Positions 7,296 through 30,737 of a DNA stretch of 30,782 bases are shown here, one piece after another. Under the pieces are notes generated by a model, which was not told where the DNA came from, made no database searches, and saw only the letters and a list, made by a program, of their open reading frames with translations. The stretch covers positions 1-30,782 of the forward strand of contig JAYTIW010000037.1 in the NCBI GenBank assembly GCA_043731575.1. The letters are read 5' to 3'. Each line of letters starts with the position of its first letter. Positions within the stretch are counted from its first letter, which is position 1. This DNA comes from Minisyncoccota bacterium. GTDB lineage: Bacteria; Patescibacteriota; Minisyncoccia; Phycocordibacterales; UBA5272. A program made the translations under genes and the position numbers.

Positions 7296-7305
7296 CTACA
7301 CTTGT

Positions 7306-8643: not shown

Positions 8644-9450
8644 ATGATAACAGTTGCACTACAAGGGGGACTAGGTAATCAATTATTTCAGTATGCGTAT
8701 GGGCGAGCACGTATGGCAGAGGGGAAGGATGTGGTTTTTGATATTAGTTTTTTTGAGACGAATACCAAGTATACAAAAAGAGAGTATCTTCTTGGTAACT
8801 TTTTAATAGGAGATTCAATTAAAATTACACAAGAGCATCCAAAACAAAATCTACTTATAAGGATTATTAATAAGATAGATGTCACACGACGCGTACGATA
8901 TTCACAAGCAAATCTAAAAAAAGATAACAATTTTGCAGACGGGTATTATGTATCAGAAAAATATTTTGTGAAGATACGAGATGTCATTCTTAAAGAAGTG
9001 GTGCTAAGAAACAAGAGTGACAAGTATAAAGAATGGGAGCAAAAGATTCTCAGTGCAAAGAATCCTCTTATGGTTCACGCGCGACGTACAGATCATATTC
9101 TTAATAAAACATTCACTCGTATTGAGGCACCATATTATCAAGAAGCTTTGAAACACTTTGATGAAGACTGTGAAATTTTTGGTTTTTCTGACGACGCTAA
9201 GTGGTTACAAGATACAATCAAGCACCCTGTTACGATGGTGAGTGGTCAGGGGTTTACTGACTACGAGGAACTTATGCTCATGTCATTAGGCAAAAACTTT
9301 ATTATTGCGAACAGTACCTATTCTTGGTGGGGGGCATGGCTTTCTACGCATCAAGACAAAAAAATTGTTGCACCTAAAAAATGGTACGCTTCGATATTTT
9401 GGACATGGCCAAATCAGGATATAGAATTTGACGGATGGGTAAGAATATAG
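8644..9450 (+). CDS. Alpha-1,2-fucosyltransferase family (GT11)
   Basis: GGLGNQLFQYA, VHARRTD (HxRRxD), FSDD, IIANSTYSWWGAWL. Confidence 0.92.
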   Translation: MITVALQGGLGNQLFQYAYGRARMAEGKDVVFDISFFETNTKYTKREYLLGNFLIGDSIKITQEHPKQNLLIRIINKIDVTRRVRYSQANLKKDNNFADGYYVSEKYFVKIRDVILKEVVLRNKSDKYKEWEQKILSAKNPLMVHARRTDHILNKTFTRIEAPYYQEALKHFDEDCEIFGFSDDAKWLQDTIKHPVTMVSGQGFTDYEELMLMSLGKNFIIANSTYSWWGAWLSTHQDKKIVAPKKWYASIFWTWPNQDIEFDGWVRI

Positions 9451-9499
9451 TCGAATTTACCCTTATGAATAAGGGTTATTCTTGTGATACACTATAAAG

Positions 9500-10876: not shown

Positions 10877-10885
10877 CGAAAAGTC

Positions 10886-11893
10886 ATGTATTTTACTATT
10901 TTAGACCTGTTTCGCTTTTTCTCTGCAATCGGTGTATTTTTCCACCACACGTTTCTTTTCCATTATGGGAGATTAGGGATATATCTCTTTTTTATGATTT
11001 CAGGGTTTGTGATTTATTTTAGCCTTAATAAAGGTGTTAAAGAATACATTGTTGGGAGATTTGTAAGGTTGTATCCAACGTTTTGGATATGTGCGACTAT
11101 TACCTTTTTAGTAACACTTGTATATGGTAACGCTATAGCAATTAAACATTACCTTATCGGGTTACTTATGTTTAATAGTGGGCACATGGAGACTATGATC
11201 GATGGGTCGTACTGGACGCTTACCTTTGAGCTTCTTTTTTATTTTTATATCGGTGTTTTTGTTTGGCTTTTTACAACAAAGAGACTGGCGTGGTTCTACA
11301 CTTCTTGGCTCCTCATTTCTTTTTTTAGTTTTTATTTTGCAGTAGATCAGGTATTTTTCTTTAAGTTATTAAGTGTTCGTTTTGCGCCATATTTTATTTT
11401 TGGAGGAGTACTTGCTCTTATCGTCGACAAATGGGACACGGTTAAATTGAAAAGTAAAATTTTGTACTCAACAGTTCTTCTAGGCTCTTGGCTTATGCCT
11501 ATCTACATCAGTAGCAAGCTACAAGATCAAAAAGAAACCATTACCAACTTTACAGGAAGCTTTGATAAAGGAGAACTTGTTATTGTAGAGGTACTTTTCA
11601 CAGTTATGTTCCTCGGTGTATTCCTTTCTCGTTTTGATTTTGCAACTAATAAATGTTTTGCGAAGATCGCTCTTACTTTAGGGAGTATTACATACCCACT
11701 CTACCTCCTTCATTGGAAAATAGGGGACACTATTATTTCTCATTACAATAATGCATATGGTGTTATCACGAATTTTTCGATAGCCGTAGCTGTACTTATC
11801 ATCATAGTCTCATATTTTATTTCCATTTACGATATACCACTTCGAAAATCAATCAAGAAAAAAATAGAAAAATTTCTATCACACCCCACGTAA
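10886..11893 (+). CDS. Acyltransferase family 3 (membrane O-acyltransferase, OafA-like)
   Basis: [48 protein letters not shown]; multiple TM helices. Confidence 0.9.
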
Positions 11894-12829
11894 ATTATTA
11901 CTCTTTAACTCTTCAAGAAATGATTCATAAGTCAGTTCTAATCCTTTGGTTACTTCAGTCATATGTGTCCATCCTAAATCATGTATCTTTTCAACATCAA
12001 GTAACTTTCGTGGAGTGCCGTCAGGTTTAGTCGTGTCAAAGATTATTTCTCCAGTATAACCAACAATATTTTTAATTATATAAGCCACTTCTTTTATTGT
12101 TATATCAGTTCCAGTACCTACGTTGACTATTTCTCGATCATTATAGTTTTCCATAAGGAAGAGAGAAGCATTTGCTAGATCGTCCACATGAAGAAACTCT
12201 CGCATAGGAGATCCTGTTCCCCATAGAGTGACTGTCGGTAATCCTTGAATCTTTGCCTCGTGGAATTTACGTATTATCGCAGGAATGACGTGGGAATTTT
12301 GTAAGTCATAGTTATCCTTTGGTCCGTAGAGATTTGTCGGCATAAGACTGATAAAGTTGTCACCATATTGATCTCTGTAAGCTTGGCATAATTTTATTCC
12401 GGCTATTTTTGCTATAGCATAAAATTCATTACTTGGCTCAAGAGCTCCTTGAAGGAGTTCATCTTCTTTTATAGGCTGTTTTGCGAATTTTGGATAAATA
12501 CAAGAAGAGCCTAAAAATAAAAGTTTCTTAACCTTGTTTAGATGTGCTGCATGAATAATATTTGTTTCTATTATTAAATTTTCATAAATAAAATCTGCTC
12601 GGAAGGTGTTGTTTGCCATAATTCCACCAACTTTAGCAGCTGCAAGGAACACATATTCTGGTTGCTCATCTTTAAAAAAAGAATTGACGGATGCTTGATT
12701 CGTCAGATCCACTTCCTCTCTTCTTTTTGTAATAATTTTGTTAAATCCAAGTTTTTTTAGATTTCTTAAAATAGCATCACCGACCATACCACGATGACCT
12801 GCTATAAATATTTTTGAGTCTTTTCGCAT
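11879..12829 (-). CDS. fcl: GDP-L-fucose synthase
   Basis: [65 protein letters not shown]. Confidence 0.96.
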
Positions 12830-12832
12830 TGT

Positions 12833-13900
12833 TTATTTTTTAAACCCCCCATTAAGTATATGCTTTTCTCTTCTTGCATGTTCAAGGTCATGTTCCATCA
12901 TCTCAGTTACTATTTCCATTATAGAAGTTTTCGGTTTCCATTGTAGTTCTTTTGCAGCTTTTAAAGCATCCCCAAGTAGCGTTTCAACCTCTGCTGGCCT
13001 ATAATAAACAGGATCAATTCGTACACGGATCGTATTTGTTTTAATTTCAACCCCTATCTCATCTAAGCCTTGTCCTTCCCAACGTAAGTCGCGGTTAACA
13101 TGATTAAATGCCCATCCAACAAACTCTCGCACACTGTATTGTTCACCGGTAGAGATTACGAAGTCATCTGGGATGTCATGTTGCATTATTTTCCACATTG
13201 CTTCAACGTAGTCCCTTGCATGTCCCCAATCACGTTTAGCATCCAAGTTACCAAGGTAGAGCACATCCTCTAATTCGTGATGAATACGTGAGACTGCTCT
13301 GGTTATTTTTTTTGTCACAAATGTCTCCCCTCGGTAAGGGCTCTCATGGTTAAAAAGAATTCCATTTGTTGCGAACATTCCGTAACTCTCTCTGTAGTTT
13401 TTTGTTATCCAGTAGCCAAATAATTTAGCAACACCATATGGACTTCGTGGATGAAAAGGAGTTAACTCATGTTGAGGTATCTCACGTACTTGTCCAAACA
13501 TTTCTGATGATGAGGCTTGGTAGAATTTAGTTGTTTTTGTTAGTCCACAAATACGAATAGCTTCAAGTAATCTTAATACTCCCATAGCATCAACATCTGC
13601 CGTATATTCTGGATTTTCAAATGATACTTTTACGTGAGATTGTGCACCAAGGTTATAAATTTCATCTGGTTTAACTTTAGCGATGATACTAATCAAGCTT
13701 GATGTGTCAGTAAGGTCACCAAAGTGAAGAAAAAATTTCGTATCCCCATGTTTATCTTTATAGATATCATCAATACGAGCAGTGTTAAAGAGAGATGTGC
13801 GGCGTTTAATGCCGTGCACTTCATAGCCTTTATCGAGTAAAAAACGAGCAAGATACGCCCCATCTTGCCCGGTTATTCCTGTAATAAGAGCTTTTTTCAT
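12833..13900 (-). CDS. gmd: GDP-mannose 4,6-dehydratase
   Basis: [68 protein letters not shown]. Confidence 0.98.
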
Positions 13901-14081
13901 TGTTCACCTATAGTAGCACGATTTAAAGCGTTGTTCAAAAATGGGGTTATTACGACCATAGACTCAAATCTGATGATGTACTTGGTGTGTTAAATTTTAA
14001 CCCACCTTATCGTTTTTGTAGGTGCTACTGAACTAAAAAAGAAAAGTTTTTTCTGTACAGAAAACCTTTCTGCGTATGTTT

Positions 14082-15131
14082 TTACTTTTTTGAAAAATAG
14101 AAATACTTAAGATTTTCTAAAAATTTAATTTTTTTAAATGGTCTATATAGTGTTGCCAGTGTCTTAAGAATACGAGATTGTCTTTTTGTGTATTTCTCTA
14201 TAAGACGTTCATGATTTCTGTAGAGTGTTGCCCTGACAGGGTTAATGGTATTTCTTTTTGCTTTCGCTAAAGGCTGATCAATTATCTTGTTGAGAAAGGT
14301 CTCAAATCCTTCCTTAACTTCTTTAAAGTCATAAGTAGCAGCAGCCACTGGTTCGTGTAGTGTTTTTAAGTAGAGTTCGTCGTTAGAGTCCAGTTCTTTG
14401 ACTCTTTCTAAGACTTGATCGAATGATTCGTAGTCATGACAGTTGATAAATCTTTTAGTATTAAATTCTCGAGAGATGTGTGGGTTGCCCCAGTAAATAG
14501 GGATAGTATTTGCTGCGATACCATTTACCAGTTTTTCTGTCGTGTATCCTGAGCGTGAAGAGTTTTCAAAAGCGATTGTGAACTTATGCTTCATCTCGTA
14601 CTCTAATTTATTTTTTACTTTTGCTCCACCTATGTTGTTAAGATATGACCCAGCGGCATTTACTTTTTTATAAGTACTCAGTGTTTCAAAAATAAGTTTA
14701 CGTTCGATATCACTTCTGTAATTTGAGTAAATAAAACTACAAAATTCTGTTTTAGTAGCAAGATTTTCTCTAGTAAAGGTTGTGTTTTTCTGTAAGTAGT
14801 TCTCACCAGCTAGGAGTAGTTCCTCCTTGGTGTAAAATACAGCCACTAGATAGAGAGGCATTCTGTAATACCTATCTTCGAATGTTAGATAATCAAAACC
14901 TACAGCATAGTCACAAAGGTTAAAGTTAGGGGAGGTATTTTCACCTGTATAAAAAATTTTAATACAGTCGTAGCGATGATGGTCAAAAGTTGACTCGTTA
15001 TAAAAAAGATACTCAGGGTCTTCTGAAAGCTCTACAGTATAAGATTTTTGAAGTGTGCTGAGAATAAAGTAACTATATGCAAAGGTATCAGTTACGCTGT
15101 GTCCACAAATTTTTACTCGTATTGTTTTCAT
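14082..15131 (-). CDS. Alpha-1,3/4-fucosyltransferase family (GT10, FucT-like)
   Basis: FYTGEN, DYAVGFD, FCSFIYSN, AGSYLNNIG, KFTIAFENS..GYTTEKL, IPIYWG. Confidence 0.9.
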   Translation of the reverse strand: MKTIRVKICGHSVTDTFAYSYFILSTLQKSYTVELSEDPEYLFYNESTFDHHRYDCIKIFYTGENTSPNFNLCDYAVGFDYLTFEDRYYRMPLYLVAVFYTKEELLLAGENYLQKNTTFTRENLATKTEFCSFIYSNYRSDIERKLIFETLSTYKKVNAAGSYLNNIGGAKVKNKLEYEMKHKFTIAFENSSRSGYTTEKLVNGIAANTIPIYWGNPHISREFNTKRFINCHDYESFDQVLERVKELDSNDELYLKTLHEPVAAATYDFKEVKEGFETFLNKIIDQPLAKAKRNTINPVRATLYRNHERLIEKYTKRQSRILKTLATLYRPFKKIKFLENLKYFYFSKK

Positions 15132-20187: not shown

Positions 20188-21564
20188 TTAGATTTTAAGA
20201 ACCTTTATAACCATTGTTCTTGTTTGTTTAAATAAAAAGAGAGAAAAGAAAGGCACTGTGTATGAAACAAGTGTTGCAAATGCTGCACCAGAAATTCCAT
20301 AAATAGGAATAAGGTATATATTTAGTACTATGTTTGTAATCATACCAAGGAATGCAGCTATCGAGATATTCTTAGTTGCATTTTCTACAACTAATATTTG
20401 TTGTGCAAATGAGTTAAGTGATGCCCCAACAGTGCTCCATGCACAGATATAGAGAGCAGGAAGAGCTCCTAAGAATGCTGTGCCAAAAATAATAAAAAGT
20501 AGATACTTAGCAAGCAATGTTAGGCTAAGAGCTACAACAATAGATATACCAAGTATGGTAAGAAGAAGTTTTTTTGTCCTCTTGTAATAAAGCTCTTCAG
20601 AATTTTTTTTCGCATTTACAATTGCAGGCAAGAGGGCAGTAAGTATAAGTTGAGGTATAAAATATGATAGCTCAGAAATTCTTACAGCAGAATCATAAAG
20701 TCCTACAGCTTCTGCCCCAATCATATTTTTTAACATTACTTGGTCAATCCTTGAATAGATTAAAAAAAATGCTGACGCAAAAATAAGAGGAAAGGAATCC
20801 TTAAGAATAAGAATAACTCTTTCTTTTTTAACACTAAGCATACGAAGATCCTTATAAACCTTTGCTTTTAGATAGAGGTATCCTAACGAGTACAGTATTG
20901 GTTCTAGTAGCACAATTCCAGCAAGATAAATAACTCCTTGGTCAAAGTAAATTGTTATTATTTTTAAAATATTTAAAATAATAACAATGCAAAGAAGTAG
21001 GATTGAAGGATACTTTGATTTTGCTTCTGCTTGGAACTCGTATCCAAGTAGTTGGAAAGCCCCAAAAAAATTAGACATACTAATTATAAAAATAAGAAGT
21101 AGTGAAACATCTTTAGAAGACAGAAGGAAGGCTGTTACTGTGGTGACAACAATGGTTACAAGAGAGGCGAGTAAGCGAAGCACGACAGCGCTTCCGAGAA
21201 GTTCGTTTCTTTTCTCAGGATATTTAATGAGATCCCTATGCAGGATTTGGTCTATACCGAGGTATGCAATAAAAGAAAAGAGACTTACAAAACTAATCGC
21301 ATAACTTAGCTCTCCGTAGTTTGCTGGGCCAAGGTTTCTTGCTATATATGCAGTTGCAAAAAAAGTAATTGCCATACTCCCAATTCTTGCAAAAAACATC
21401 CAACTCATATTTTTTGAATGTTTTTGGAATCCAGGTTGTCTAAACTTTTCTTGAATGTAGAGAATAAAATCTCTGTATATTTCCATCATAATGACGTGGT
21501 GTATATTTTTTATTTTCAAAGCAAGAGCTTCTTTTGTGGAAGTTCCTTCAAAATGTTGATCCAA
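20188..21564 (-). CDS. wzx: Polysaccharide flippase (Wzx/MATE-like)
   Basis: Multi-TM protein; ARNLGPANYG, RIDQVMLKNM, VGLYDSAVR, NIVLNIYLIPIYGISGAAFATL. The start may be ATG 21489. Confidence 0.9.
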   Translation of the reverse strand: MDQHFEGTSTKEALALKIKNIHHVIMMEIYRDFILYIQEKFRQPGFQKHSKNMSWMFFARIGSMAITFFATAYIARNLGPANYGELSYAISFVSLFSFIAYLGIDQILHRDLIKYPEKRNELLGSAVVLRLLASLVTIVVTTVTAFLLSSKDVSLLLIFIISMSNFFGAFQLLGYEFQAEAKSKYPSILLLCIVIILNILKIITIYFDQGVIYLAGIVLLEPILYSLGYLYLKAKVYKDLRMLSVKKERVILILKDSFPLIFASAFFLIYSRIDQVMLKNMIGAEAVGLYDSAVRISELSYFIPQLILTALLPAIVNAKKNSEELYYKRTKKLLLTILGISIVVALSLTLLAKYLLFIIFGTAFLGALPALYICAWSTVGASLNSFAQQILVVENATKNISIAAFLGMITNIVLNIYLIPIYGISGAAFATLVSYTVPFFSLFLFKQTRTMVIKVLKI

Positions 21565-21583: not shown

Positions 21584-22804
21584 TTAGTATTTTGCTAGGA
21601 ACTCATCAATTTTATTTTGTACGTATGTAATTTGAGTATCGTCTAGTCCATGGTGACACGCAAGAACGAAAGCGCTTTTCATAATAGTATCTGTATTAGG
21701 GAAGGCGACACTTATTTTTCTACTTTCAATTTTCTTAAAACCTGGTTGTTTAAGAATGTTGCCTGCAAAAACAGGACGAGTTTGGATATTGTTGTCTTCT
21801 AAGAACGTAACTATTTCAAGACGTGTGAAAGGGGCTTTTGGTTTAATAATAATAGGAAAGGCAAGCCATGCTGTCTCTGTATTGGGTGTCTGAGTTGGTA
21901 GGATGAAGTATGTATCTTTTGTCCCTATATATTTTGTAAGATTTTCAAAGTTCCGCTTTCTCTTTTCTAAGAAACCAGGGAGTCTTTTCATTTGAGCAAG
22001 AGCAAAAGCTGAAGAAATTTCAAGAGGGAGGAAGTTATAGCCAACTTCACTGAAGATAAATTTATTGTCGTAGGGGATGCCTCCTAGTTTAAAGTTGAAG
22101 CGATTTTTAAGTAGTTCTGAGTTAGCTTTTTCCCCATAGAGAGATGATTGTCTGCCCCAACCACGAAGGACTTTAAGTCTTGCTTCCCATTTTTCATCAT
22201 TAACCATAATCATACCTCCTCCTCCTGCACCATTTATAATATGTGATCCGTAGAAGCTAGTTACTGAAATATCAGAGTGAAGACCAGTAGGTTTACCTTC
22301 GAATTTACCGCCCAAAGTATCACAAGAGTCTTCGATAAAATATAGTTTATGCTTTTTTGCAATCTCTGAGAGTGCTTTCATATTAGGAATGTTACCCATA
22401 AGAGAAGGAATCATAAGAGCTCTAGTCTTCTTCGTGACAGCACTCTTTACTTGGTCTAAGTTCACAAGATATGTTGTTGGGTCAACATCGACAAAAACAG
22501 GAATAAGACCTTTTTGTACAATTGGAGAGACGACAGTTGCAAAAGTGAGAGCGGGAGTGATAACTTCAGAACCTTTTGGAAGATTGAGTAATTCAAAAGC
22601 AAGAAGATTGGCTGAAGATCCAGAGTTAACCATAACTCCATGCTTCTTACCAAACATTTTAGCAATCTTAGATTCGAATTCTATTGTTTTATCACCCAGA
22701 GAAGTGTTTCCCTTAAGAACCTCTACAACAGCATCAATTTCTTCTTGTCCATGAACCGAAAAACCATAAGGGACTCTCAGTTTTTTTTCTGTTGCTTTAG
22801 CCAT
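21584..22804 (-). CDS. DegT/DnrJ-family PLP/PMP enzyme, RfbH(DdhC)/ColD-like NDP-4-keto-6-deoxyhexose 3-dehydrase with His in place of the catalytic Lys
   Basis: NSGSSANL, EDSCD, SFYGSH (His188, codon 22241-22243), RGWGR, GYN, QTRPVFAGN. Confidence 0.8.
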   Translation of the reverse strand: MAKATEKKLRVPYGFSVHGQEEIDAVVEVLKGNTSLGDKTIEFESKIAKMFGKKHGVMVNSGSSANLLAFELLNLPKGSEVITPALTFATVVSPIVQKGLIPVFVDVDPTTYLVNLDQVKSAVTKKTRALMIPSLMGNIPNMKALSEIAKKHKLYFIEDSCDTLGGKFEGKPTGLHSDISVTSFYGSHIINGAGGGGMIMVNDEKWEARLKVLRGWGRQSSLYGEKANSELLKNRFNFKLGGIPYDNKFIFSEVGYNFLPLEISSAFALAQMKRLPGFLEKRKRNFENLTKYIGTKDTYFILPTQTPNTETAWLAFPIIIKPKAPFTRLEIVTFLEDNNIQTRPVFAGNILKQPGFKKIESRKISVAFPNTDTIMKSAFVLACHHGLDDTQITYVQNKIDEFLAKY

Positions 22805-23062
22805 AAAATATTGTATAAATAATATTAGTAAATTGTCAGGTACCTATCTAATATACCCAATATATCAGATATATATTTTTTATCAAAGACCAAAATCCGT
22901 AATCCTTAATTTGATTAAGGGGTGGTTTTTATAGGTACGGTAGTTGATGCACAGCTCTATTTGCTATACGCTTTGACTGAGAGCTTCCTTTTAGTTACAC
23001 TGGCTACACATAAATAGTTATTTTACTCTTTTAGTTTTACTTACTCACATTTATTTATTTGT

Positions 23063-24349
23063 ATGAATTTATCTTACCCAAAGCATCACCTTGTAAAAAC
23101 AGGATATATAGCTACCTGTCAGATATGTAATTCTGATAAGCTTCACACAATCATCGATCTTGGGCATCAGCCACTGTGTGATACATTGCTCACAGATGCG
23201 ACGTTAAATGAACCCGAGAAGACATACCCACTTCGTATGATCTGGTGTGAGAATTGTACGAGCTCTCAGATTGACTATTGTGTTGACGGCAAGGAAGTCT
23301 ATCATCCAGAATACCCGTATAAGAGTGGCGTGACTAAAGAGCTTGTTGAATATCAAGTTAAGATCGCGGAAGGGCTCATTAAGAAATATGATTTGAAGCC
23401 AAACGATCTTGTAATTGATGTCGGATCAAATGATGGAACACTTCTCTCTGGATTTAAAGGAACTGGTATTAAAACTGTAGGAATTGAGCCAACTAACATT
23501 GCTAAGATTGCTAATGCTAATGGGGTTGAGACGGTGCAGGCATTTTTCGATATTAAGACTTCAGAGACAGTGAAAGCTAAGTACGGGGAGGTAGCACTCA
23601 TTGTAACCACTAACACTTTTGCACATATGCAAGGTCTTGGTGAATTCATTATGGGGGCACATAACCTCCTTAAGGAGGGAGGAAAGTTCGTTTCTGAGAC
23701 ACATTATCTTTTGAATGTTATTGAAGGAGGGCAGTTCGATACTGTGTATCACGAACACTTGCGAACATACTCACTTAAAGGCCTCGTTACACTTTTTGAT
23801 CAATATGACTTCACTGTTACTGATGTTGAACGAGGCGACAGATACGGAGGGAACATTCGTGTTCACGTGACCAAAGGAAAAGGGCATTCAGTAGCACAAG
23901 CCGTTACTGACCTCCTAGCTCTTGAAGAAAAATCTGGCCTCGGTAAATTAGAGACATTTATGGCGTGCGCTGAAAGAGTGAAGGCTGCGAGATTCCATTT
24001 TATGGAGTTCCTCTTAAATACAAAGAAAGAAGGTAAGACTATCGTAGGAAACTCATGTCCTGGAAGAAGCTCCACACTTCTTAATTATTATGGAGTAGAT
24101 TCTGACCTTCTCCCATATTTAGCTGAACAGCCGACATCACTCAAGCTTGGTATGTATCTCCCAGGGAAACATATTCCAGTGGTGAACAATCAAAGACTTA
24201 TTGATGAACAGCCTGATTATGTTGTACTTCTTGCATGGCATTACGCTAAGCCAATTATGAAACAGTTGAAGGCTAGAGGGTTAAAGTCAGACTTTGTGCT
24301 TCCACTTCCAGATTTTGAAATCGTTAAAAATGAAGACGTAGAACTCTAA
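23063..24349 (+). CDS. NDP-hexose C3-methyltransferase (Zn-binding, SAM-dependent)
   Basis: CQIC...DLGHQP...C..C zinc site, DVGSNDGTLL, GIEP, FDTVYHEHLRTYS, LLAWHY. Confidence 0.9.
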   Translation: MNLSYPKHHLVKTGYIATCQICNSDKLHTIIDLGHQPLCDTLLTDATLNEPEKTYPLRMIWCENCTSSQIDYCVDGKEVYHPEYPYKSGVTKELVEYQVKIAEGLIKKYDLKPNDLVIDVGSNDGTLLSGFKGTGIKTVGIEPTNIAKIANANGVETVQAFFDIKTSETVKAKYGEVALIVTTNTFAHMQGLGEFIMGAHNLLKEGGKFVSETHYLLNVIEGGQFDTVYHEHLRTYSLKGLVTLFDQYDFTVTDVERGDRYGGNIRVHVTKGKGHSVAQAVTDLLALEEKSGLGKLETFMACAERVKAARFHFMEFLLNTKKEGKTIVGNSCPGRSSTLLNYYGVDSDLLPYLAEQPTSLKLGMYLPGKHIPVVNNQRLIDEQPDYVVLLAWHYAKPIMKQLKARGLKSDFVLPLPDFEIVKNEDVEL

Positions 24350-24350
24350 A

Positions 24351-25352
24351 ATGAAAGTAGGCATCATCGGAAGTGGATTTGGCCTCTACGGGTTATTACC
24401 GGCGTTTAATTCTATTCCTGATGTTAAGGTTGTAGCTATCTGTGGCAAAAAGTCTGAGCGCTTACTTACATACTGTAAAAGTATTCAGCTGACAAAGGTC
24501 TACACCAATTGGGAAGAAATGCTAGAGAAGGAGCAATTAGACGCGGTAGCTATTGCCGTTGTTCCAAGCGCTCAATACAAGATTGTGAAAGTTGCAATAA
24601 AAAAAGGAATTCACATATTTGCAGAAAAGCCACTCACTTCTAAATATGAAGAGGCGAAAGAATTACTTCTACTTGCGACAAAAAAGAAACTCACTACCAC
24701 TGTGGATTTCATCTTTCCAGAGATTGAAGAATGGCAGAAAGCAAAGGAGTTGCTTGATAAAAAAGTCTATGGCGAGTTGAAGCATATTTCTGTTAATTGG
24801 GATTTTTTGAGCTATGATATTAAGAACAAAGTGTCTTCATGGAAGACTGATCTGAAGGAGGGAGGGGGTGTATTATCATTTTATGGTTCACACAGTCTGT
24901 ATTATATAGAATATTTTGTGGGCACTGTTTCAAAACTCGCCACTACTTTTACATACTCCAAAGAAAGTAAGAATGGTGCCGAGACTGGAGTTGATATGGT
25001 TGTCACCTTTAAAAATAAAGCAACAGGGCAAGTTCATATTTCTTGTAATACTATTGGTCTACAGCAACATAAGTTAGTATTTTTTTGCGAGAAAGGAACA
25101 CTTGTTCTTGAGAGTGAAAGTGGTGTCACAGAGAATTTCACGTTAACTATTCATACTGAAAATAAGAAGAAAGTTATTGCAGTTAAAAAATTAAAAACAA
25201 AAAAGAACGAAGATGAGCGTGTGCGAACCGTCGAAAAATTGGTCACACGATTCGTAGAAGGTGTCAAGAAAAGAGTACAAGTAACTCCATCATTTAAAGA
25301 AGGTGTACGCGTACAAGAATTGATAGAGAAAATACGAAATAATAAAATTTAG
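24351..25352 (+). CDS. Gfo/Idh/MocA-family oxidoreductase (candidate NDP-sugar ketoreductase)
   Basis: VGIIGSGFG, AEKPL, GGGVL...GSH; starts 2 nt after the C-methyltransferase stop. Confidence 0.88.
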   Translation: MKVGIIGSGFGLYGLLPAFNSIPDVKVVAICGKKSERLLTYCKSIQLTKVYTNWEEMLEKEQLDAVAIAVVPSAQYKIVKVAIKKGIHIFAEKPLTSKYEEAKELLLLATKKKLTTTVDFIFPEIEEWQKAKELLDKKVYGELKHISVNWDFLSYDIKNKVSSWKTDLKEGGGVLSFYGSHSLYYIEYFVGTVSKLATTFTYSKESKNGAETGVDMVVTFKNKATGQVHISCNTIGLQQHKLVFFCEKGTLVLESESGVTENFTLTIHTENKKKVIAVKKLKTKKNEDERVRTVEKLVTRFVEGVKKRVQVTPSFKEGVRVQELIEKIRNNKI

Positions 25353-25421: not shown

Positions 25422-25493
25422 CAGAAACGGATATGTGTAGTTTTGTTAGCAGACGGTCCATCTGCGACTGCACATCGTACTAGGAGAAACCAA

Positions 25494-26210
25494 TTGACAG
25501 CTTATGTTCCCTCCGCGCTCTCATATGCGTGTGCAAGTTCGCTTGTCCTCGTTGACAAGCGACCCGCTGCAAATGCAGTGTTCATTGTTGACAAGCGACC
25601 CGCTGCAAATGCAGTGTTCATTCACGGCCCGCCCGCGGCTGACGACGGAATCGACACCGATCTTCTCAAGCTCGGTATCTCGATGGTCGCTTCCAAAGAG
25701 GCTGGTGCCCTGGTGATCAATGGGCTCACGGATGAAGCCTGCTGGCCAAACGGTCAGCGTCTGGCGTATCCAGGGTGCGATACCTGGGGCCGTAACCTCG
25801 TGGGGCTCGGGTATCCCGAGTATTTGAAGATTCCACCGTCGAAACACACGGCCGCCGAAAGCGACAACCTCATTCTTCTTGCCAAGGAAATGGGTTGGGG
25901 ATCTGTGGTGATCATGTCCTATCCGCACCACATTCTGCGTTGCATGTTGCAAATGGTCTTTTGTTTGGCACGGGCCAAGTCCGGTCTCAAGGTTTACACC
26001 AGGACTCTCTCGACTGTCAACTGGCAGCATGTTGCCGAGAAGGGTGTGCTCAACAACACGGCCTTCAGCGGCACTCTTGTCGACGCTCACATCCGTGAGG
26101 AATACGAGCGTTTGATCAAATACGCTGACCGTGACGGCACCGGCTACACCCCACACGCCACTTTGGAAGAACTCATCGAGTACTACCAGCAGCGTGATGC
26201 AGCTCAGTAG
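25494..26210 (+). CDS. YdcF/DUF218(ElyC/SanA)-like protein, GC-rich
   Basis: AGGAG (25482-25486) + TTG 25494, in frame with the listed ORF. HTAAESDNL...GWGSVVIMSYPHHILRC resembles the DUF218 T.EN...vlVTs..H..RA motif. Confidence 0.65.
   Translation: MTAYVPSALSYACASSLVLVDKRPAANAVFIVDKRPAANAVFIHGPPAADDGIDTDLLKLGISMVASKEAGALVINGLTDEACWPNGQRLAYPGCDTWGRNLVGLGYPEYLKIPPSKHTAAESDNLILLAKEMGWGSVVIMSYPHHILRCMLQMVFCLARAKSGLKVYTRTLSTVNWQHVAEKGVLNNTAFSGTLVDAHIREEYERLIKYADRDGTGYTPHATLEELIEYYQQRDAAQ
25551..25622 (+). repeat. Perfect 36-bp tandem duplication (VDKRPAANAVFI x2)
   Basis: GTTGACAAGCGACCCGCTGCAAATGCAGTGTTCATT at 25551-25586 and 25587-25622. Confidence 0.97.
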
Positions 26211-26883: not shown

Positions 26884-27060
26884 TCATTTTAAAGATATTT
26901 TTTCAATACAAATTTTTTTAAAAGTAAGCTTGTAAAAGGGGTTGATAAACGTTATAATTGTTGTAGTTTAAGAGTAAAGGGTTAGCTGTAGTACTTTGAG
27001 ATATTTCTCTAAAGCCTATAGATATCAATGATATTCTCAGTACTCCACACTCCTATTACA

Positions 27061-28131
27061 ATGAAAGAATTTTACAAGAATAAAAAAATACTAGTCACGG
27101 GACACACAGGCTTTAAGGGCGCATGGCTCTCTCAGATTCTTCTTAACTGGGGTGCGGAGGTCATCGGTATTTCACTTCGCCCGACAACAACACCGAACAT
27201 GTTTGGTGCAATTGGTCTTGAGAGTAGGGTTACTAATTACTTTACTGACATTGATGATCTGGAGGCAATGAAGAAAATTTTTAATAAAGAAAAGCCGGAG
27301 ATTGTTTTTCATCTTGCAGCACAGCCAATAGTGAGAAGGAGCTATGATGACCCGATAGAAACATTTTCTACTAACTGCATGGGTACGGCACACATTTTGG
27401 AAGCAATGAGAGAGATTAAGTCTGTTAAGTCAGCAGTTATCATCACAACTGATAAAGTATATGAGAACAAAGAGTGGCACTATCCATATCGTGAGAGTGA
27501 TCCGCTTGGGGGGTATGATCCATATAGTGCGAGTAAGGCTGCAGCTGACCTTATTACAAGTTCTTATATGCAATCATTTTTTAATCCAGAAGATTTCGGC
27601 ACTAAACATAATACTCTAGTAGCAATTGCGCGTGCAGGTAATGTTGTAGGAGGAGGTGACTGGGCAGACTACCGTCTCATACCGGATGTGATTCGTGCTG
27701 TCTACCATGAAGGGACTCATGTTGAAATTAGAAATCCCGATGCGATACGTCCATGGCAGCATGTCCTTGAGCCACTCTCTGGCTATCTTATGCTTGCGAA
27801 GCGTCTTTATGAAAAAGAAAAACATCTTTCCCAAGCATGGAACTTCGGTCCGCATAATGATAGTTTTGTGAGTGTGGAGAATCTTCTTACTGAGGCTAAA
27901 AAAGCTATGCCAAGTTTTGTGTATATTGTTAAACCTGATATGACTGGGAAACATGAGGCCGGATTACTTAAGCTTGATATCAATAAAACAGCACATCACC
28001 TTAGTTGGAAACCAAAGGTTAATTTTGAACAGACTATAGCTCTTACTTTTGATTGGTATAAAAATTATTATGAAAAAAAGGAGGATGTGGTAGTATTTAC
28101 TAACAAACAAATTAATGCCTTTTTTCGATAA
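27061..28131 (+). CDS. rfbG: CDP-glucose 4,6-dehydratase
   Basis: ILVTGHTGFKGAWL, HLAAQPIVRRSY, ITTDKVYEN, DPYSASKA, ARAGNVVGGGDW, RPWQHVLEPLSGY, WNFGP. ATG 27061 is preferred over the listed 27028. Confidence 0.96.
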   Translation: MKEFYKNKKILVTGHTGFKGAWLSQILLNWGAEVIGISLRPTTTPNMFGAIGLESRVTNYFTDIDDLEAMKKIFNKEKPEIVFHLAAQPIVRRSYDDPIETFSTNCMGTAHILEAMREIKSVKSAVIITTDKVYENKEWHYPYRESDPLGGYDPYSASKAAADLITSSYMQSFFNPEDFGTKHNTLVAIARAGNVVGGGDWADYRLIPDVIRAVYHEGTHVEIRNPDAIRPWQHVLEPLSGYLMLAKRLYEKEKHLSQAWNFGPHNDSFVSVENLLTEAKKAMPSFVYIVKPDMTGKHEAGLLKLDINKTAHHLSWKPKVNFEQTIALTFDWYKNYYEKKEDVVVFTNKQINAFFR

Positions 28132-28134
28132 CCT

Positions 28135-28905
28135 ATGAAAGTCGTACTACTAGCCGGGGGTCTTGGCACCAGATTAAATGAGGAAACAACCCTCAAACCA
28201 AAGCCAATGGTTGAAATTGGGGGTAAGCCAATACTTTGGCACATTATGAAGATATATTCTCATCACGGGTTCAATGAGTTTATTATTTGCCTTGGGTATA
28301 AGAGTCATTATATTAAGGATTGGTTTAATGACCACATGCTTCATAATAGTGATGTCACTTTTAATTTAGAAGATGGGACTACTACTATCCATAAAAGTAG
28401 TGCTGAGAAGTGGAAAGTAACCCTTGTTGATACTGGCTACCATACAATGACAGGTGGGAGAATAAAAAGAGTACAAGAATACATTGGGAACGAAACTTTT
28501 ATGGTTACTTATGGAGATGGTGTTGGCGATATCGACATTAGTGCTCTTGTTGCTTTTCATAAGAAGAATAAAGGGGTTGTTACGGTAACTGCTGTTACTC
28601 CAGAAGGACGATTTGGCACACTTACTATAGATCATAATTCTCATGTAACAGCTTTTAGTGAAAAGACAGATAATAAAGTAAAAATAAATGGAGGTTTCTT
28701 TGTGCTTGAGCCAGAGATATTTAAATACCTAGAAAATGATGAAACTATTTTCGAGAAAGGGCCACTTGAGAGACTTGCTAAAGATAATCAGCTTAAAGCA
28801 TATTCTCATGAAGGTTTCTGGAAGCCAATGGATACACTTAACGATAAGAATAAGTTGGAAGATATTTGGAACAAAGGTGGCGCACCTTGGAAAGTTTGGA
28901 TCTAG
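28135..28905 (+). CDS. rfbF: Glucose-1-phosphate cytidylyltransferase
   Basis: LAGGLGTRLNEET..KPKPMVEIGGKPILWHIMK, TMTGGRIKR, TYGDG, INGGFFV, FWKPMDT, APWKVW. Confidence 0.96.
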   Translation: MKVVLLAGGLGTRLNEETTLKPKPMVEIGGKPILWHIMKIYSHHGFNEFIICLGYKSHYIKDWFNDHMLHNSDVTFNLEDGTTTIHKSSAEKWKVTLVDTGYHTMTGGRIKRVQEYIGNETFMVTYGDGVGDIDISALVAFHKKNKGVVTVTAVTPEGRFGTLTIDHNSHVTAFSEKTDNKVKINGGFFVLEPEIFKYLENDETIFEKGPLERLAKDNQLKAYSHEGFWKPMDTLNDKNKLEDIWNKGGAPWKVWI

Positions 28906-28949
28906 GAAATTATGGATATAAGATCTTTATACAAAGAGTACTCTGTTAC

Positions 28950-30737
28950 ATGAAAAAACCAACCAACAAAAAATTGTGCTCAGAACTAATTGTTGACTTT
29001 TTGTCACAGAAGAAGATCACTCATGTTTTTGATTTAACAGGCGGGATGATTACATATCTTGAGGATGCTATTAGTAAAAAAAAGGGGATGACGTGTGTTC
29101 CTATGCATCATGAACAGGCGGCAGGATTCGCGGCTGAGGGGTATGCACGAAAGGGACAGAACTTCGGTGTAGCACTAGCAACGAGTGGACCAGGAGCAAC
29201 AAATCTCATTACCGCAATTGGAAGTTGTTACTTTGACTCTATTCCAACTATGTTTATTATCGGGCAGGTTCATACCGAAAACTTAAAGAAGAATGATCAA
29301 GTGCGCCAAGAAGGTTTTCAGGAGACAGATATTACAACCGTTGTAAAAACACTCACTAAGTATTCTGTGCTTGTAAAAGATGTGAATGCAGTTATATATG
29401 AACTTGAAAAAGCGTATTACATTATGACCTCTGGCCGTTTCGGATCTGTGCTTATCGATATTCCAATTAATCTTCAGCGTACTGAGATAGACGAAAAATC
29501 TGTGAAGCACTTTTTCGGTTCTCGTGAACACGTTCAAATGGAAAGTAACGTTAAGAAGACTTTCGGTAAGGAGGTGCAAAAAAGTAAAGTAACACAATTA
29601 GAAAAGTTACTTCGTAACGCAAAAGCACCATGTGTCATTATTGGGAATGGTGTGCGTCTTTCTAGTACAACAAAAGAGCTTTCAGAGTTCGTTACAAAAA
29701 ACAACCTCCCAGTCCTGACGTCATTACTTGGTATTGACTCGTATCCATTTTCAAAAAACCTCGTTGGGTACATTGGTTCAAATGGTAATCGAGATGCGAA
29801 TATTATTTTTGCAAATGCAGACCTTATTATTGCCTTAGGGACAAGATTGGATGTTCGTCAGATAGGTGCTGCAAAATTTTTTAACCCTACTGCAAAACTT
29901 GTGCATGTTGACATTGATAAAAGTTCCATTAATTATAGTCTTATGTCAGCACTTTCTTTTGAAACTGATCTTGTGCATTTTTTCAAAGCTACAAAGCATA
30001 TTGCAACAAAAAAGAAAGAAGCGTGGAGTTTGTTCATACGTAAAGTACAAGAAAAGTTCCCACGACTACACTCATATTCTGACAAAGAAGTTGACCCAAA
30101 TACATTTTTCCATGAACTCTCAGCCTTAACGCAAGCCAAGGCAACAATTATTGCTGATGTTGGTCAAAATCAAATGTGGTGCGCTCAATCGTGGAAGGTA
30201 AAAAAGAACCAGAGACTCCTTTTTTCTGGGGGGATGGGGGCAATGGGTTTTTCTTTACCTGCCGCTATTGGAGCATGGTATGCTGATCAATCTTCTTCAC
30301 TTATTGTTACGTGTGGAGACGGAGGGATACAGATTAATATTCAAGAATTAGAAACGGTGAGTAGGAACAAGATTCCACTTAAGTTATTTATTATTAATAA
30401 CAAATCTTTGGGGATGGTTAGGGAATTTCAAGATCTTTATTTTAATAAAAATTATCAGTCAACAGTAAAGGGATATGGACATCCTGACTTTAAGAAAATT
30501 GCGTATGCATATGATTTTGAGTATGTAAAAATTGGGTCAATTTCTAAAAGTGATCCTGTTATTAAAGAGATTGTACAAAATAAGAAACCAGTACTTATTG
30601 AAGTAGAGCTCTCAATAACAGCGACGCTTCAGCCAAAAGTCGTCTACGGACACGCACTCGATGACCAGTCGCCATATCTTAATGAAACACAGAAATCGGA
30701 ACTAGAAGAACTTAAAAGAAACCTAAAGGCGTCATAA
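28950..30737 (+). CDS. ThDP-dependent acetolactate-synthase-like enzyme (YerE-like sugar C-C carboligase candidate)
   Basis: HHEQAAGFAAEGYAR, ATSGPGATN, FQETD, DVGQNQMW, GGMGAMGFSLPAAIG, GDGG...NNKSLGMVREFQ. ATG 28950 is preferred over the listed 28866. Confidence 0.88.
   Translation: MKKPTNKKLCSELIVDFLSQKKITHVFDLTGGMITYLEDAISKKKGMTCVPMHHEQAAGFAAEGYARKGQNFGVALATSGPGATNLITAIGSCYFDSIPTMFIIGQVHTENLKKNDQVRQEGFQETDITTVVKTLTKYSVLVKDVNAVIYELEKAYYIMTSGRFGSVLIDIPINLQRTEIDEKSVKHFFGSREHVQMESNVKKTFGKEVQKSKVTQLEKLLRNAKAPCVIIGNGVRLSSTTKELSEFVTKNNLPVLTSLLGIDSYPFSKNLVGYIGSNGNRDANIIFANADLIIALGTRLDVRQIGAAKFFNPTAKLVHVDIDKSSINYSLMSALSFETDLVHFFKATKHIATKKKEAWSLFIRKVQEKFPRLHSYSDKEVDPNTFFHELSALTQAKATIIADVGQNQMWCAQSWKVKKNQRLLFSGGMGAMGFSLPAAIGAWYADQSSSLIVTCGDGGIQINIQELETVSRNKIPLKLFIINNKSLGMVREFQDLYFNKNYQSTVKGYGHPDFKKIAYAYDFEYVKIGSISKSDPVIKEIVQNKKPVLIEVELSITATLQPKVVYGHALDDQSPYLNETQKSELEELKRNLKAS

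What the first reader, a model, noticed from the sequence alone, without database searches (positions are those of the whole stretch)
21584..22804. RfbH(E1)-like 3-dehydrase that keeps the catalytic His but lacks the [2Fe-2S] cysteines, with no E3 reductase nearby
Seen: SFYGSH has His188 where DegT aminotransferases have the Schiff-base Lys. The whole 406-aa protein has only two Cys (C161 in EDSCD and one near the C-terminus). The segment that reads WGRDCxC...C in RfbH/DdhC here reads WGRQSSLYGEK, and YDHKY reads YDNKF. No DdhD/AscD-like flavo-iron-sulfur reductase gene is in the window. Established: E1 needs its Fe-S cluster and E3 for C3 deoxygenation of the CDP-sugar, whereas ColD does it for the GDP-sugar with His, PLP and glutamate alone. 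Inference: this is either a ColD-type mechanism on an RfbH scaffold acting on CDP-4-keto-6-deoxyglucose (an Fe-S-free route to 3,6-dideoxyhexoses, suited to a redox-poor minimal cell), or a divergent ColD making GDP-colitose with gmd/fcl.
Basis: partly seen in the sequence, partly recalled or inferred. Interest (0 to 1): 0.65.

Follow-up and report, generated by a model that had tools for sequence, protein, structure and literature searches.

The report
Iron-sulfur-free E1-like sugar 3-dehydratase
This gene from an ultra-small (Patescibacteria) bacterium encodes a relative of the textbook iron-sulfur enzyme E1/RfbH that has lost its iron-sulfur site; it belongs to a large, widespread and apparently untested enzyme branch that probably removes the 3-hydroxyl of a CDP-sugar without iron or a reductase partner.

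Summary
The 406-aa protein (21584-22804, minus strand) has His188 in the Schiff-base Lys slot and only two Cys. It lacks three of the four [2Fe-2S] ligand Cys of E1.

It is not a one-off. It sits in a well-supported clade of Cys-less E1-like proteins nested inside the E1 lineage and separate from ColD. The clade occurs in Patescibacteria, Alphaproteobacteria, Legionellaceae, Bacteroidota, SAR11 and SAR86. Most members also lack the fourth Cys.

About half of the related loci carry rfbF and rfbG. The gene often fills the ddhC slot (rfbF-rfbG-gene). Some relatives are fused to sugar epimerase, reductase or C-methyltransferase domains, which argues for a 4-keto product.

Genomes with the Cys-less form mostly lack any FNR-type reductase (13 of 18). 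Genomes with the Fe-S form almost always have one (11 of 12).

Best reading: an Fe-S-independent CDP-4-keto-6-deoxyglucose 3-dehydratase with a ColD-like PMP/PLP cycle, feeding the neighbouring C-methyltransferase and ThDP enzyme. This is inferred, not shown. The GDP-colitose alternative is not supported: gmd and fcl are explained by two fucosyltransferases.

This scan has flagged the same clade on other DNA at least 37 times. I found no biochemical paper on it.

The parts
21584..22804 (-). Cys-less E1/RfbH-like PMP-dependent sugar 3-dehydratase gene (406 aa; H188, S187, C161, loop 216-249)
22241..22246 (-). Codons for Ser187-His188, the dyad in the Schiff-base Lys slot. It reads Ser-His as in ColD and Ala-His in Fe-S E1.
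   Evidence: PDB title of 3gr9 (ColD H188K S187N)
22058..22159 (-). Codons for residues 216-249. This segment (WGR...YDNKF) replaces the C-x-C-x7-C iron-sulfur loop and the YDHKY motif of E1.
20188..21564 (-). Wzx-type flippase gene 19 bp downstream. No terminator-like site lies between them, so they are probably co-transcribed.
22810..22886 (-). Two promoter-like sites just upstream of the ATG. These are consensus matches only and are not enriched over shuffles.
23063..24349 (+). Divergent sugar C-methyltransferase (Methyltransf_13/23/14). This family is fused to a Cys-less E1-like protein in SAR86. In a Saccharibacteria locus (L031) a 79%-identical C-methyltransferase is colinear with a Cys-less E1-like gene that is 68% identical to this protein.
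24351..25352 (+). Gfo/Idh/MocA oxidoreductase, a candidate keto-reductase of the pathway
27028..28131 (+). CDP-glucose 4,6-dehydratase (rfbG/ddhB), which makes the presumed substrate
   Evidence: TIGR02622, 483.8 bits, cut-off 278
28135..28905 (+). Glucose-1-phosphate cytidylyltransferase (rfbF/ddhA)
   Evidence: TIGR02623, 393.8 bits, cut-off 300
28866..30737 (+). Acetolactate-synthase-like ThDP enzyme (YerE-like candidate). It scores below all ALS equivalog cut-offs, and no ilvC was found in the genome.

Best explanation
The gene encodes a PMP-dependent nucleotide-sugar 3-dehydratase of the E1 (RfbH/DdhC/AscC) lineage that has no iron-sulfur cluster and needs no E3-type reductase. RfbF and RfbG, encoded 4-6 kb away, make CDP-4-keto-6-deoxy-D-glucose. 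The enzyme forms a PMP-sugar ketimine, and His188 (with Ser187) drives loss of the 3-hydroxyl. Electrons cannot be fed in through a cluster. Instead, the ene-amine intermediate is released and hydrolysed to CDP-4-keto-3,6-dideoxyglucose plus ammonia, as in ColD. PLP is then returned to PMP by transamination with an amino acid, probably L-glutamate. The 4-keto product is passed to the neighbouring C-methyltransferase, ThDP enzyme and reductases. The finished sugar is built into a surface glycan that the co-transcribed Wzx flippase exports. Shown here: the sequence features, the clade, its gene contexts and the reductase co-occurrence. Inferred: the substrate, the product and the ColD-like cofactor cycle.
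For: The fold and nearest solved relative are E1. By sequence, 3bcx scores 1.4e-76 against 1.3e-47 for ColD. The AlphaFold model has pLDDT 94.3, TM 0.89 to 3bcx and 0.84-0.86 to ColD. PLP/PMP-site residues and His188 are invariant in the clade. The three loop Cys are 0% in the 47-row clade and 91-95% in 67 Fe-S-type rows. The remaining Cys161 is Ala in 53 of 71 genome hits. The clade has SH-aLRT 99 and lies inside a 132-row E1 superclade (99) that excludes the ColD-like rows. On context, rfbF and rfbG equivalogs are in the window. Of 76 Cys-less loci, 40 have an rfbF-type gene, 39 an rfbG-type gene and only 2 a gmd. In 23 of 71, rfbG is directly upstream on the same strand. ThDP enzymes and C-methyltransferases accompany Cys-less and Fe-S forms at similar rates (15/76 vs 6/21; 8/76 vs 4/21), as expected for the same pathway slot. 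Natural fusions to SDR, RmlC-like, RmlD-like and C-methyltransferase domains exist, and all of these act on 4-keto sugars. On reductases, 6 of 7 and 7 of 11 Cys-less Patescibacteria/DPANN genomes have no PF00175 protein at all, against 1 of 12 Fe-S-type genomes. The phylum background is 196 of 301 with one; Fisher p is about 0.001, but related genomes are not independent. Ser187 and Phe249 match the ColD-like rows and differ from the Fe-S rows. In the genus of L051 (record title Tatlockia), 10 of 24 species carry only the Cys-less form. In the nine of these examined in wider context it lies next to rfbF, and in eight of the nine a ThDP enzyme 40-43% identical to the window's lies nearby. Yersiniose A, a 3,6-dideoxy branched sugar, is reported from Legionella (Tatlockia) micdadei and L. 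maceachernii (reference 59 of PMC7867332).
Against: No member of this clade has been assayed, as far as the held library shows. The review PMC8987622 knows only E1, ColD and SpnQ. The same review reports that SpnQ acts as an aminotransferase without its reductase, so a His enzyme of this lineage can transaminate. In this window the gene is on the opposite strand and 4.2 kb from rfbG/rfbF, so substrate assignment rests on co-occurrence. No glutamate-binding residues could be checked. No glutamate dehydrogenase was found in the 80%-complete genome, so the amino donor and the fate of the keto acid are unknown. Some Cys-less loci (SAR11) sit with rmlA/rmlB-type genes, so nucleotide specificity may vary within the clade. 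The genome is incomplete.
Confidence: 0.6

Rival explanations
1. It is a 4-aminotransferase in practice. Without a cluster and reductase, the PMP-sugar adduct is resolved by transamination, as SpnQ does in vitro, giving CDP-4-amino-4,6-dideoxyglucose.
For: The review PMC8987622 reports aminotransferase activity of SpnQ with PLP and glutamate when no reductase is present. The fold is that of DegT aminotransferases.
Against: His188 is invariant and Ser187 nearly so (70 of 71), which is the ColD dyad and not the Asn-Lys of aminotransferases (3gr9 title). Fusions to RmlC-like, RmlD-like, SDR and C-methyltransferase domains, and the frequent ThDP-enzyme neighbour, all need a 4-keto sugar. No N-acyl- or N-methyltransferase partner stood out, but this was not searched systematically.
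Confidence: 0.13
2. It is a 3-dehydratase whose ene-amine intermediate is reduced by a different partner, such as the adjacent Gfo/Idh/MocA oxidoreductase or an SDR using NAD(P)H. PMP would then be kept and no amino donor consumed.
For: A C-methyltransferase-GFO-E1-like gene trio is colinear in a Saccharibacteria locus, and the same three genes are neighbours here. SDR genes follow the E1-like gene in many proteobacterial loci.
Against: I know of no precedent for hydride reduction of a PMP-glucoseen adduct. GFO occurs in only 3 of 76 loci. The SDR and GFO genes are more simply the 4-keto reductases every such pathway needs.
Confidence: 0.1
3. It is a divergent ColD that makes GDP-4-keto-3,6-dideoxymannose for GDP-colitose, together with the window's manC, gmd and fcl.
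For: manC, gmd and an fcl-type gene lie 8-12 kb away. The protein lacks Fe-S, as ColD does.
Against: It lies within the E1 superclade, apart from the ColD-like rows. E1 scores 261 bits against 166 for ColD. The fcl gene passes the GDP-L-fucose synthase equivalog cut-off (507 > 500), and GT11 and GT10 fucosyltransferase genes flank gmd/fcl. Only 2 of 76 Cys-less loci have a gmd nearby. A genuine ColD between gmd and fcl exists in genome G192 and hits only ColD in the PDB.
Confidence: 0.03
4. It still binds a metal cluster or uses an unrecognised electron donor through other ligands (C161, C383, His384/385).
For: C383 is fairly conserved in the clade (74-80%) and His384 is nearly invariant.
Against: C161 is Ala in most members, so at most one Cys column is conserved. 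His384 matches a family-wide His also seen in Lys-type aminotransferases (my reading of the alignments). This genus shows no SUFBD_core or NifU_N scaffold gene, and most host genomes have no FNR-type reductase.
Confidence: 0.04

Closest known systems
E1 (AscC / DdhC / RfbH), CDP-6-deoxy-L-threo-D-glycero-4-hexulose 3-dehydrase of Yersinia and Salmonella (PDB 3bcx, 3bb8)
   Same: It is the nearest solved relative by sequence and by fold. It has His in the Lys slot, belongs to the same lineage in the tree and has the same gene neighbours rfbF/rfbG, often in the same operon position.
   Different: Three of the four [2Fe-2S] Cys ligands are missing here, and all four are missing in most clade members. 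No E3 or FNR-type partner was found in the genome. It has Ser-His instead of Ala-His, Ile instead of the second His, and YDNKF instead of YDHKY. It scores 363.6 bits, below the RfbH equivalog cut-off of 423.
ColD, GDP-4-keto-6-deoxy-D-mannose 3-dehydratase (PDB 2gms, 3b8x, 3gr9)
   Same: It has no iron-sulfur cluster, carries His188 preceded by Ser187, and has Phe at the position of the second Tyr of E1's YDHKY. The cofactor cycle proposed here is ColD's (mechanism as described in PMC8987622).
   Different: It belongs to a different clade and is only about 28% identical. ColD-like rows lack the WGR motif. The context is CDP-glucose genes rather than a gmd-colD-colC arrangement.
SpnQ-type dTDP-4-keto-2,6-dideoxyglucose 3-dehydratases
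   Same: They are E1-like enzymes with no dedicated E3 gene nearby (PMC8987622).
   Different: SpnQ keeps the Fe-S motif and uses general ferredoxin or flavodoxin reductases. This protein has no motif, and its genome shows no such reductase.
Yersiniose A pathway (ddhD-ddhA-ddhB-ddhC-yerE-yerF) of Yersinia pseudotuberculosis
   Same: The gene set matches: cytidylyltransferase, CDP-glucose 4,6-dehydratase, E1-type enzyme and an ALS-like ThDP enzyme.
   Different: There is no ddhD and the E1 lacks Fe-S. An extra C-methyltransferase and a GFO oxidoreductase are present. The genes are split over both strands.

Membership tests
DegT/DnrJ/EryC1/StrS fold-type I PLP/PMP sugar enzymes | Pfam PF01041 match over the whole length, and the aminotransferase fold | tested here: met
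   PF01041 scores 268.8 bits over residues 19-399. The model has pLDDT 94.3, and all top fold matches belong to this family.
E1 / RfbH / DdhC (Fe-S, PMP-dependent CDP-sugar 3-dehydrase) | Score at or above the curated equivalog cut-off (NF011936) | tested here: not met
   363.6 bits against a cut-off of 423
E1 / RfbH / DdhC (Fe-S, PMP-dependent CDP-sugar 3-dehydrase) | His replaces the Schiff-base Lys | tested here: met
   His188 is in the S+5 register and is invariant in the clade.
E1 / RfbH / DdhC (Fe-S, PMP-dependent CDP-sugar 3-dehydrase) | Four Cys ligands of the [2Fe-2S] cluster (E1 C193, C251, C253, C261) | tested here: not met
   Only the C193 equivalent (C161) is present. The three loop columns are 0% Cys in the clade and 91-95% in Fe-S-type rows.
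E1 / RfbH / DdhC (Fe-S, PMP-dependent CDP-sugar 3-dehydrase) | E3 (DdhD/AscD) or another FNR-type or ferredoxin electron donor in the genome | tested here: not met
   No PF00175 and no PF00111 match was found in G000, which is about 80% complete. The same holds for 13 of 18 Cys-less host genomes.
E1 / RfbH / DdhC (Fe-S, PMP-dependent CDP-sugar 3-dehydrase) | Genomic association with glucose-1-P cytidylyltransferase and CDP-glucose 4,6-dehydratase | tested here: met
   Both equivalogs are in the window. Both lie within 10 kb in 33 of 71 related loci, and rfbG is directly upstream in 23.
ColD (Fe-S-free GDP-sugar 3-dehydratase) | Placement in the ColD clade, with ColD as the best solved match | tested here: not met
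   It lies outside the ColD-like rows in the tree. E1 scores 261 bits against 166 for ColD.
ColD (Fe-S-free GDP-sugar 3-dehydratase) | Ser-His dyad and no Fe-S ligands | tested here: met
   S187-H188 is present. Ser is 83% in the clade, 86% in ColD-like rows and 3% in Fe-S rows.
ColD (Fe-S-free GDP-sugar 3-dehydratase) | A gmd-colD-colC (fcl-like) gene context for GDP-colitose | tested here: not met
   gmd and fcl are 8-10 kb away, flanked by GT10 and GT11 fucosyltransferase genes, and fcl passes the GDP-fucose synthase cut-off. Only 2 of 76 related loci have a gmd.
ColD-like mechanism (works like, not membership) | 3-deoxygenation with PLP/PMP and L-glutamate alone, releasing ammonia and 2-oxoglutarate | not testable with these tools
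   This needs an enzyme assay.

The most novel reading that the evidence does not exclude
The E1 scaffold without its cluster uses a third chemistry. The PMP-bound 3,4-ene intermediate would be reduced directly by hydride from a neighbouring NAD(P)H oxidoreductase (the Gfo/Idh/MocA or SDR partner). The cell would then deoxygenate C3 with neither iron-sulfur electron transfer (E1/E3) nor consumption of an amino donor (ColD).
Probability: 0.08. Interest if true: 0.75.

Novelty: new variant of a known kind. Interest (0 to 1): 0.5.

Why it matters
Textbooks give one route to CDP-3,6-dideoxyhexoses such as abequose, tyvelose, paratose, ascarylose and yersiniose. That route is E1 with its [2Fe-2S] cluster plus the flavo-iron-sulfur reductase E3.

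If this clade does the same step without iron or a reductase, three things follow:
- The E1/E3 pair is only one of two solutions on the same scaffold.
- Many genes annotated 'CDP-6-deoxy-D-xylo-4-hexulose-3-dehydrase / E1' or 'aminotransferase' are mislabelled as to mechanism.
- 3,6-dideoxy and branched sugars become accessible to cells that have no FNR-type reductase. In this genus no SUF or ISC scaffold was found either.

It would also give glyco-engineers a one-protein, oxygen-insensitive tool for making CDP-3,6-dideoxy sugars. Culturable hosts such as Sinorhizobium psoraleae, Novosphingobium lindaniclasticum and Legionellaceae make the question directly testable.

Tried and rejected
Things that failed or led nowhere:
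I got context from the genome search, the fetch from genomes and the search for related loci instead.
The 12-row alignment A2 worked.
- Looking for an adjacent E3 by BLAST, by a home-made FNR HMM and by a GGxGxxP/RxYS motif found one only in 3 of 97 loci, all Fe-S type and from one Patescibacteria family. Most Fe-S-type loci also lack an adjacent reductase, so adjacency does not discriminate. I therefore used whole-genome presence in small genomes.
- The primary papers on E1, SpnQ and ColD (PMC2782820, PMC2515268, PMC2242600, PMC2515278) are not held. What I say about the four-Cys motif rests on the review PMC8987622, my alignment and memory.
- I could not view the alignment to PDB 9wvy ('putative NDP-4-keto-6-deoxyglucose-3-dehydratase', E = 9e-37, weaker than ColD), so its type is unknown.
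G330 (one contig, 3,310,028 bp) fits the reported 3.3 Mb plasmid-free genome (PMC4256840), but that is not an identification.

Readings rejected:
- Long open frames in L057, L068 and L069 looked like fusions, but they have no extra domain.
- Divergent ColD, pseudogene and residual metal site (see rival explanations).
Full report
**1. Observation**

The ORF at 21584-22804 on the minus strand is intact and gives a 406-aa protein, P0001.
- SFYGSH is at residues 183-188, EDSCD at 158-162, WGRQSSLYGEK at 216-226 and YDNKF at 245-249. The only Cys are C161 and C383.
- Pfam calls it DegT/DnrJ/EryC1/StrS (268.8 bits).
- The best NCBIfam model is RfbH (NF011936), at 363.6 bits against a cut-off of 423.
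- The best solved relatives are E1 of Yersinia (3bcx 1.4e-76; 3bb8, the H220K mutant), then ColD (1.3e-47).
- In the alignment to 3bcx, C161 pairs with E1 C193 and His188 with E1 His220. E1 C251, C253 and C261 face a Cys-free stretch.
- His188 lies five residues after the motif Ser. That is the register of Lys in Lys-type paralogues such as SFHPVK in L014.

**2. A family trait, not an accident**

- A word-indexed search gave 7990 relatives at E ≤ 1e-20. The top 120 are 70-92% identical, are 397-451 aa long and come mostly from Patescibacteria metagenomes.
- An exhaustive search of 1.84 billion representatives gave 1176 clusters at E ≤ 1e-30.
- I aligned the best 150 to the query and saw two motif classes. 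One reads SFYPAHH ... WGRDCWC...C..RF ... YDH, the Fe-S type. The other reads SFY[GA]SH[IV] ... WGRxS....E..E...RF..DGIPYD, with no Cys in the loop.
- In 67 Fe-S-type rows the columns matching query positions 161, 220, 222 and 232 are 100, 94, 95 and 91% Cys. This recovers the C-X57-C-X-C-X7-C motif. In the Cys-less clade the last three columns are 0% Cys.
- I built an IQ-TREE tree of 147 rows with the trait columns removed, rooted on Lys-type paralogues. It puts the query in a 47-row clade (SH-aLRT 99) in which no row has any of the three loop-ligand Cys (one row carries a single, differently placed Cys in that stretch).
- That clade sits inside a 132-row E1 superclade (99) that excludes the ColD-like rows. 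Fe-S rows are basal, so the loss is derived. A few other small lineages lost the Cys independently. This was a quick search with LG+G4, so deep branches are only moderately supported.

**3. Distribution**

- One scan of species-representative genomes returned 80 loci. Of the 83 E1-family reading frames found in them, 74 were scored Cys-less and 9 Fe-S type. Of those 74 frames, 71 are full-length and were used for the column counts and context below.
- Hosts named in the record titles include Saccharibacteria, Paceibacterota, Levyibacteriota and a Woesearchaeota archaeon. They also include Sinorhizobium psoraleae, Novosphingobium lindaniclasticum, Sphingomonas oligoaromativorans, Aliiroseovarius, Leisingera, Legionellaceae, Coxiellaceae, many Bacteroidota, Pelagibacteraceae and SAR86.
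- In 53 of the 71 full-length hits the remaining Cys161 is Ala (EDSADT). His188 is 71/71 and Ser187 70/71. With at most one conserved Cys column (C383), a four-ligand cluster is not possible for the clade.

**4. Structure**

AlphaFold2 with the 31-row alignment gave mean pLDDT 94.3 and pTM 0.92. The replaced loop (residues 219-235) is modelled as three short helices with somewhat lower confidence, 79-87. Foldseek ranks E1 first (TM 0.89, 36% identity), then a metagenomic transaminase, then ColD (TM 0.84-0.86, 28%).

**5. Context in the window**

- rfbG (27028-28131; TIGR02622, 483.8 bits) and rfbF (28135-28905; TIGR02623, 393.8 bits) both pass their equivalog cut-offs.
- They are followed by an ALS-like ThDP enzyme that scores below every ALS cut-off. 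No ilvC was found in the genome.
- Divergent from the gene lie a sugar C-methyltransferase and a Gfo/Idh/MocA oxidoreductase.
- A Wzx flippase gene starts 19 bp downstream, with no terminator-like site between.
- manC, gmd and fcl are further away. fcl passes the GDP-L-fucose synthase cut-off (507.3 > 500) and gmd its own (565 > 415). A GT11 and a GT10 fucosyltransferase flank them. The GDP branch is therefore explained by fucosylation and needs no ColD.

**6. Context elsewhere**

I compared reading frames in 97 loci with the window's proteins and with E. coli RmlABCD.
- Of 76 Cys-less loci, 40 have an rfbF-type gene, 39 an rfbG-type gene, 8 an rmlA-type gene (SAR11) and only 2 a gmd.
- In 23 of the 71 full-length loci from the genome scan, rfbG is directly upstream on the same strand.
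- In Sinorhizobium, Novosphingobium, Legionellaceae, Coxiellaceae and Aquirickettsiella the order is rfbF-rfbG-gene, which is the ddhA-ddhB-ddhC arrangement.
- ThDP enzymes (15/76 vs 6/21) and C-methyltransferases (8/76 vs 4/21) accompany the two forms at similar rates. This is what one expects if both forms fill the same pathway slot.
- In a Saccharibacteria locus the C-methyltransferase (79% identical), GFO (50%) and E1-like gene (68%) are colinear.

**7. Fusions**

Representatives of the Cys-less clade are fused to an SDR 4,6-dehydratase/epimerase-type domain, to an RmlC-like 3,5-epimerase, and to RmlC plus RmlD-like reductase. In SAR86 the fusion partner is the C-methyltransferase family that neighbours the gene here. 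All these partners act on 4-keto sugars. None is a flavin reductase. This favours a 4-keto product over a 4-amino product.

**8. Reductase co-occurrence**

- In a 301-genome sample of the phylum, 196 genomes (65%) carry a PF00175 protein.
- Among the 19 genomes with a strong E1-family gene, classified by motif, 6 of the 7 Cys-less hosts have none. Of the 12 Fe-S-type hosts, 11 have one, and in three it is adjacent to the gene.
- In 11 further Cys-less Patescibacteria/DPANN genomes, 7 have none.
- Fisher's exact test gives p = 0.0017 for 1/7 against 11/12, and p = 0.0008 for 5/18 against 11/12. Related genomes are not independent and completeness varies, so these p values overstate the case. 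The direction is clear.
- The window's own genome has no PF00175 and no PF00111 match.

**9. ColD-like active-site touches**

I scanned all columns for positions where the Cys-less clade agrees with the ColD-like rows and disagrees with the Fe-S rows. Only two turned up. One is Ser187, the residue before the catalytic His (Ser 83% / 86% against Ala 85%). The other is Phe249 (87% / 86% against Tyr 84%). ColD Ser187 is one of the two residues changed in the PDB entry titled 'ColD H188K S187N'. This is suggestive and no more.

**10. A possible natural experiment**

- The genus of locus L051 is called Tatlockia in the record title. Of its 24 species genomes, 10 have an E1-family gene. All 10 are about 50% identical to the query, and no Fe-S-type hit appeared at the 1e-60 threshold.
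- In the nine of these examined in wider context, the gene reads EDSADT and has the Cys-free loop. It lies next to rfbF and, in eight of the nine, near a ThDP enzyme 40-43% identical to the window's.
- The title of reference 59 in PMC7867332 states that yersiniose A, a 3,6-dideoxy-4-C-branched octose, is an LPS constituent of Legionella micdadei and L. maceachernii.
- I could not name the genomes. G330 is a single 3,310,028-bp contig, which fits the 3.3 Mb plasmid-free L. micdadei genome of PMC4256840. That is not an identification.
- If those species carry only the Cys-less enzyme, its 3-deoxygenating role would be nearly settled.

**11. Mechanism**

According to the review PMC8987622, E1, ColD and SpnQ all form the PMP-sugar Schiff base and use the His to expel the 3-OH. 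They differ in how the 3,4-ene intermediate is resolved. E1 and SpnQ reduce it through the cluster. ColD hydrolyses it and regenerates PMP from glutamate. With no cluster and mostly no reductase in the cell, the ColD route is the simplest resolution for this clade. That step is inferred.

The main rival is SpnQ-like transamination, which the same review reports for SpnQ without its reductase. The fusions, the ThDP and C-methyltransferase partners and the conserved Ser-His dyad argue against it.

**12. Fe-S economy**

Neither the window's genome (about 80% complete) nor the 100%-complete genome of the same genus shows a SUFBD_core or NifU_N gene. Other Cys-less hosts do have them. An Fe-S-free enzyme therefore fits this genus, but the clade is not confined to such cells.

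**13. Prior knowledge**

The held literature lists only E1, ColD and SpnQ as characterised 3-dehydratases. The Campylobacter 3,6-dideoxyheptose enzymes are true ColD orthologues, 62-67% identical. Five searches found no paper on an Fe-S-free CDP enzyme. Most subscription papers are not held, so this is absence in the library only.

Earlier notes of this scan describe the same clade in at least 36 other genomes and reach the same reading. I had stated my own reading before seeing them.

**14. Verdict**

This is a real, conserved and widespread enzyme variant. It is a new variant of a known kind, of moderate interest and readily testable.

Noticed in passing
whole genome G000 and same-genus genome G211: No SUFBD_core (PF01458) and no NifU_N (PF01592) gene was found in the window's genome (about 80% complete) or in the 100%-complete genome of the same genus. 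A same-family genome and other Patescibacteria do have them. The genus may lack the usual Fe-S assembly scaffolds.
   Followed up: partly
L134-L142 (nine species genomes of the genus whose record title is Tatlockia), e.g. L134:8517-14767: A conserved cluster holds rfbF, a Cys-less E1-like gene (EDSADT, no ligand Cys at all) and an SDR; in eight of the nine loci a ThDP enzyme 40-43% identical to the window's lies nearby. Yersiniose A is reported from Legionella (Tatlockia) micdadei and L. maceachernii, so this may link the clade to a known 3,6-dideoxy branched sugar. The species could not be named.
   Followed up: partly
L079:9992-12436 (SAR86 single-cell genome): One open frame of 815 aa joins a Cys-less E1-like domain (20-396) to a sugar C-methyltransferase (Methyltransf_13/23/14). 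That family is encoded divergently next to the gene in this window.
   Followed up: partly
proteins P0132, P0149, P0159, P0166 and other representatives with two matched stretches: Several relatives of both types carry an insertion of about 250 aa right after the ED.C motif (query residue about 158-160). In P0132 it matches intein/Hint domains. This would be an intein in the PLP-site strand of a sugar dehydratase.
   Followed up: partly
L026:8685-9485, L027:7243-7989, L029:2148-2909: In one Patescibacteria family the Fe-S-type rfbH has an adjacent FNR-like gene of about 230-250 aa. It has the GGTG.TP motif but no ferredoxin domain. It looks like a short E3-like partner that differs from classical DdhD/AscD.
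   Followed up: partly
L021 (G192:C1), genes at 1791-2741, 4693-5871, 6849-7862 and 9375-10697: One Patescibacteria genome carries a genuine ColD-type gene between gmd and an fcl-like gene. It hits only ColD in the PDB at 1e-40. Four kb away it also has an Fe-S-type E1 with a ThDP enzyme, so both dideoxy routes sit in one glycan locus.
   Followed up: partly
window 8644-15131: A GT11 (alpha-1,2) and a GT10 (alpha-1,3/4, with FucT_N domain) fucosyltransferase flank manC, gmd and fcl. The glycan island at 10-22 kb has lower G+C (0.34-0.37 against 0.40-0.42). This suggests a doubly fucosylated surface glycan in a CPR bacterium.
   Followed up: no
window 25443-26210 (+) and 25521-26156 (-): A 255-aa frame with no family match contains an exact 12-residue tandem repeat (VDKRPAANAVFI twice) and is mirrored by a 211-aa antisense frame. 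A weak relative (26% identity over 202 aa) lies in the related locus L014.
   Followed up: no
window 22804-22886 (-): The closer of two promoter-like sites ends its -10 hexamer 6 nt before the ATG, and no Shine-Dalgarno-like purine run is visible. The mRNA may be leaderless or nearly so.
   Followed up: no
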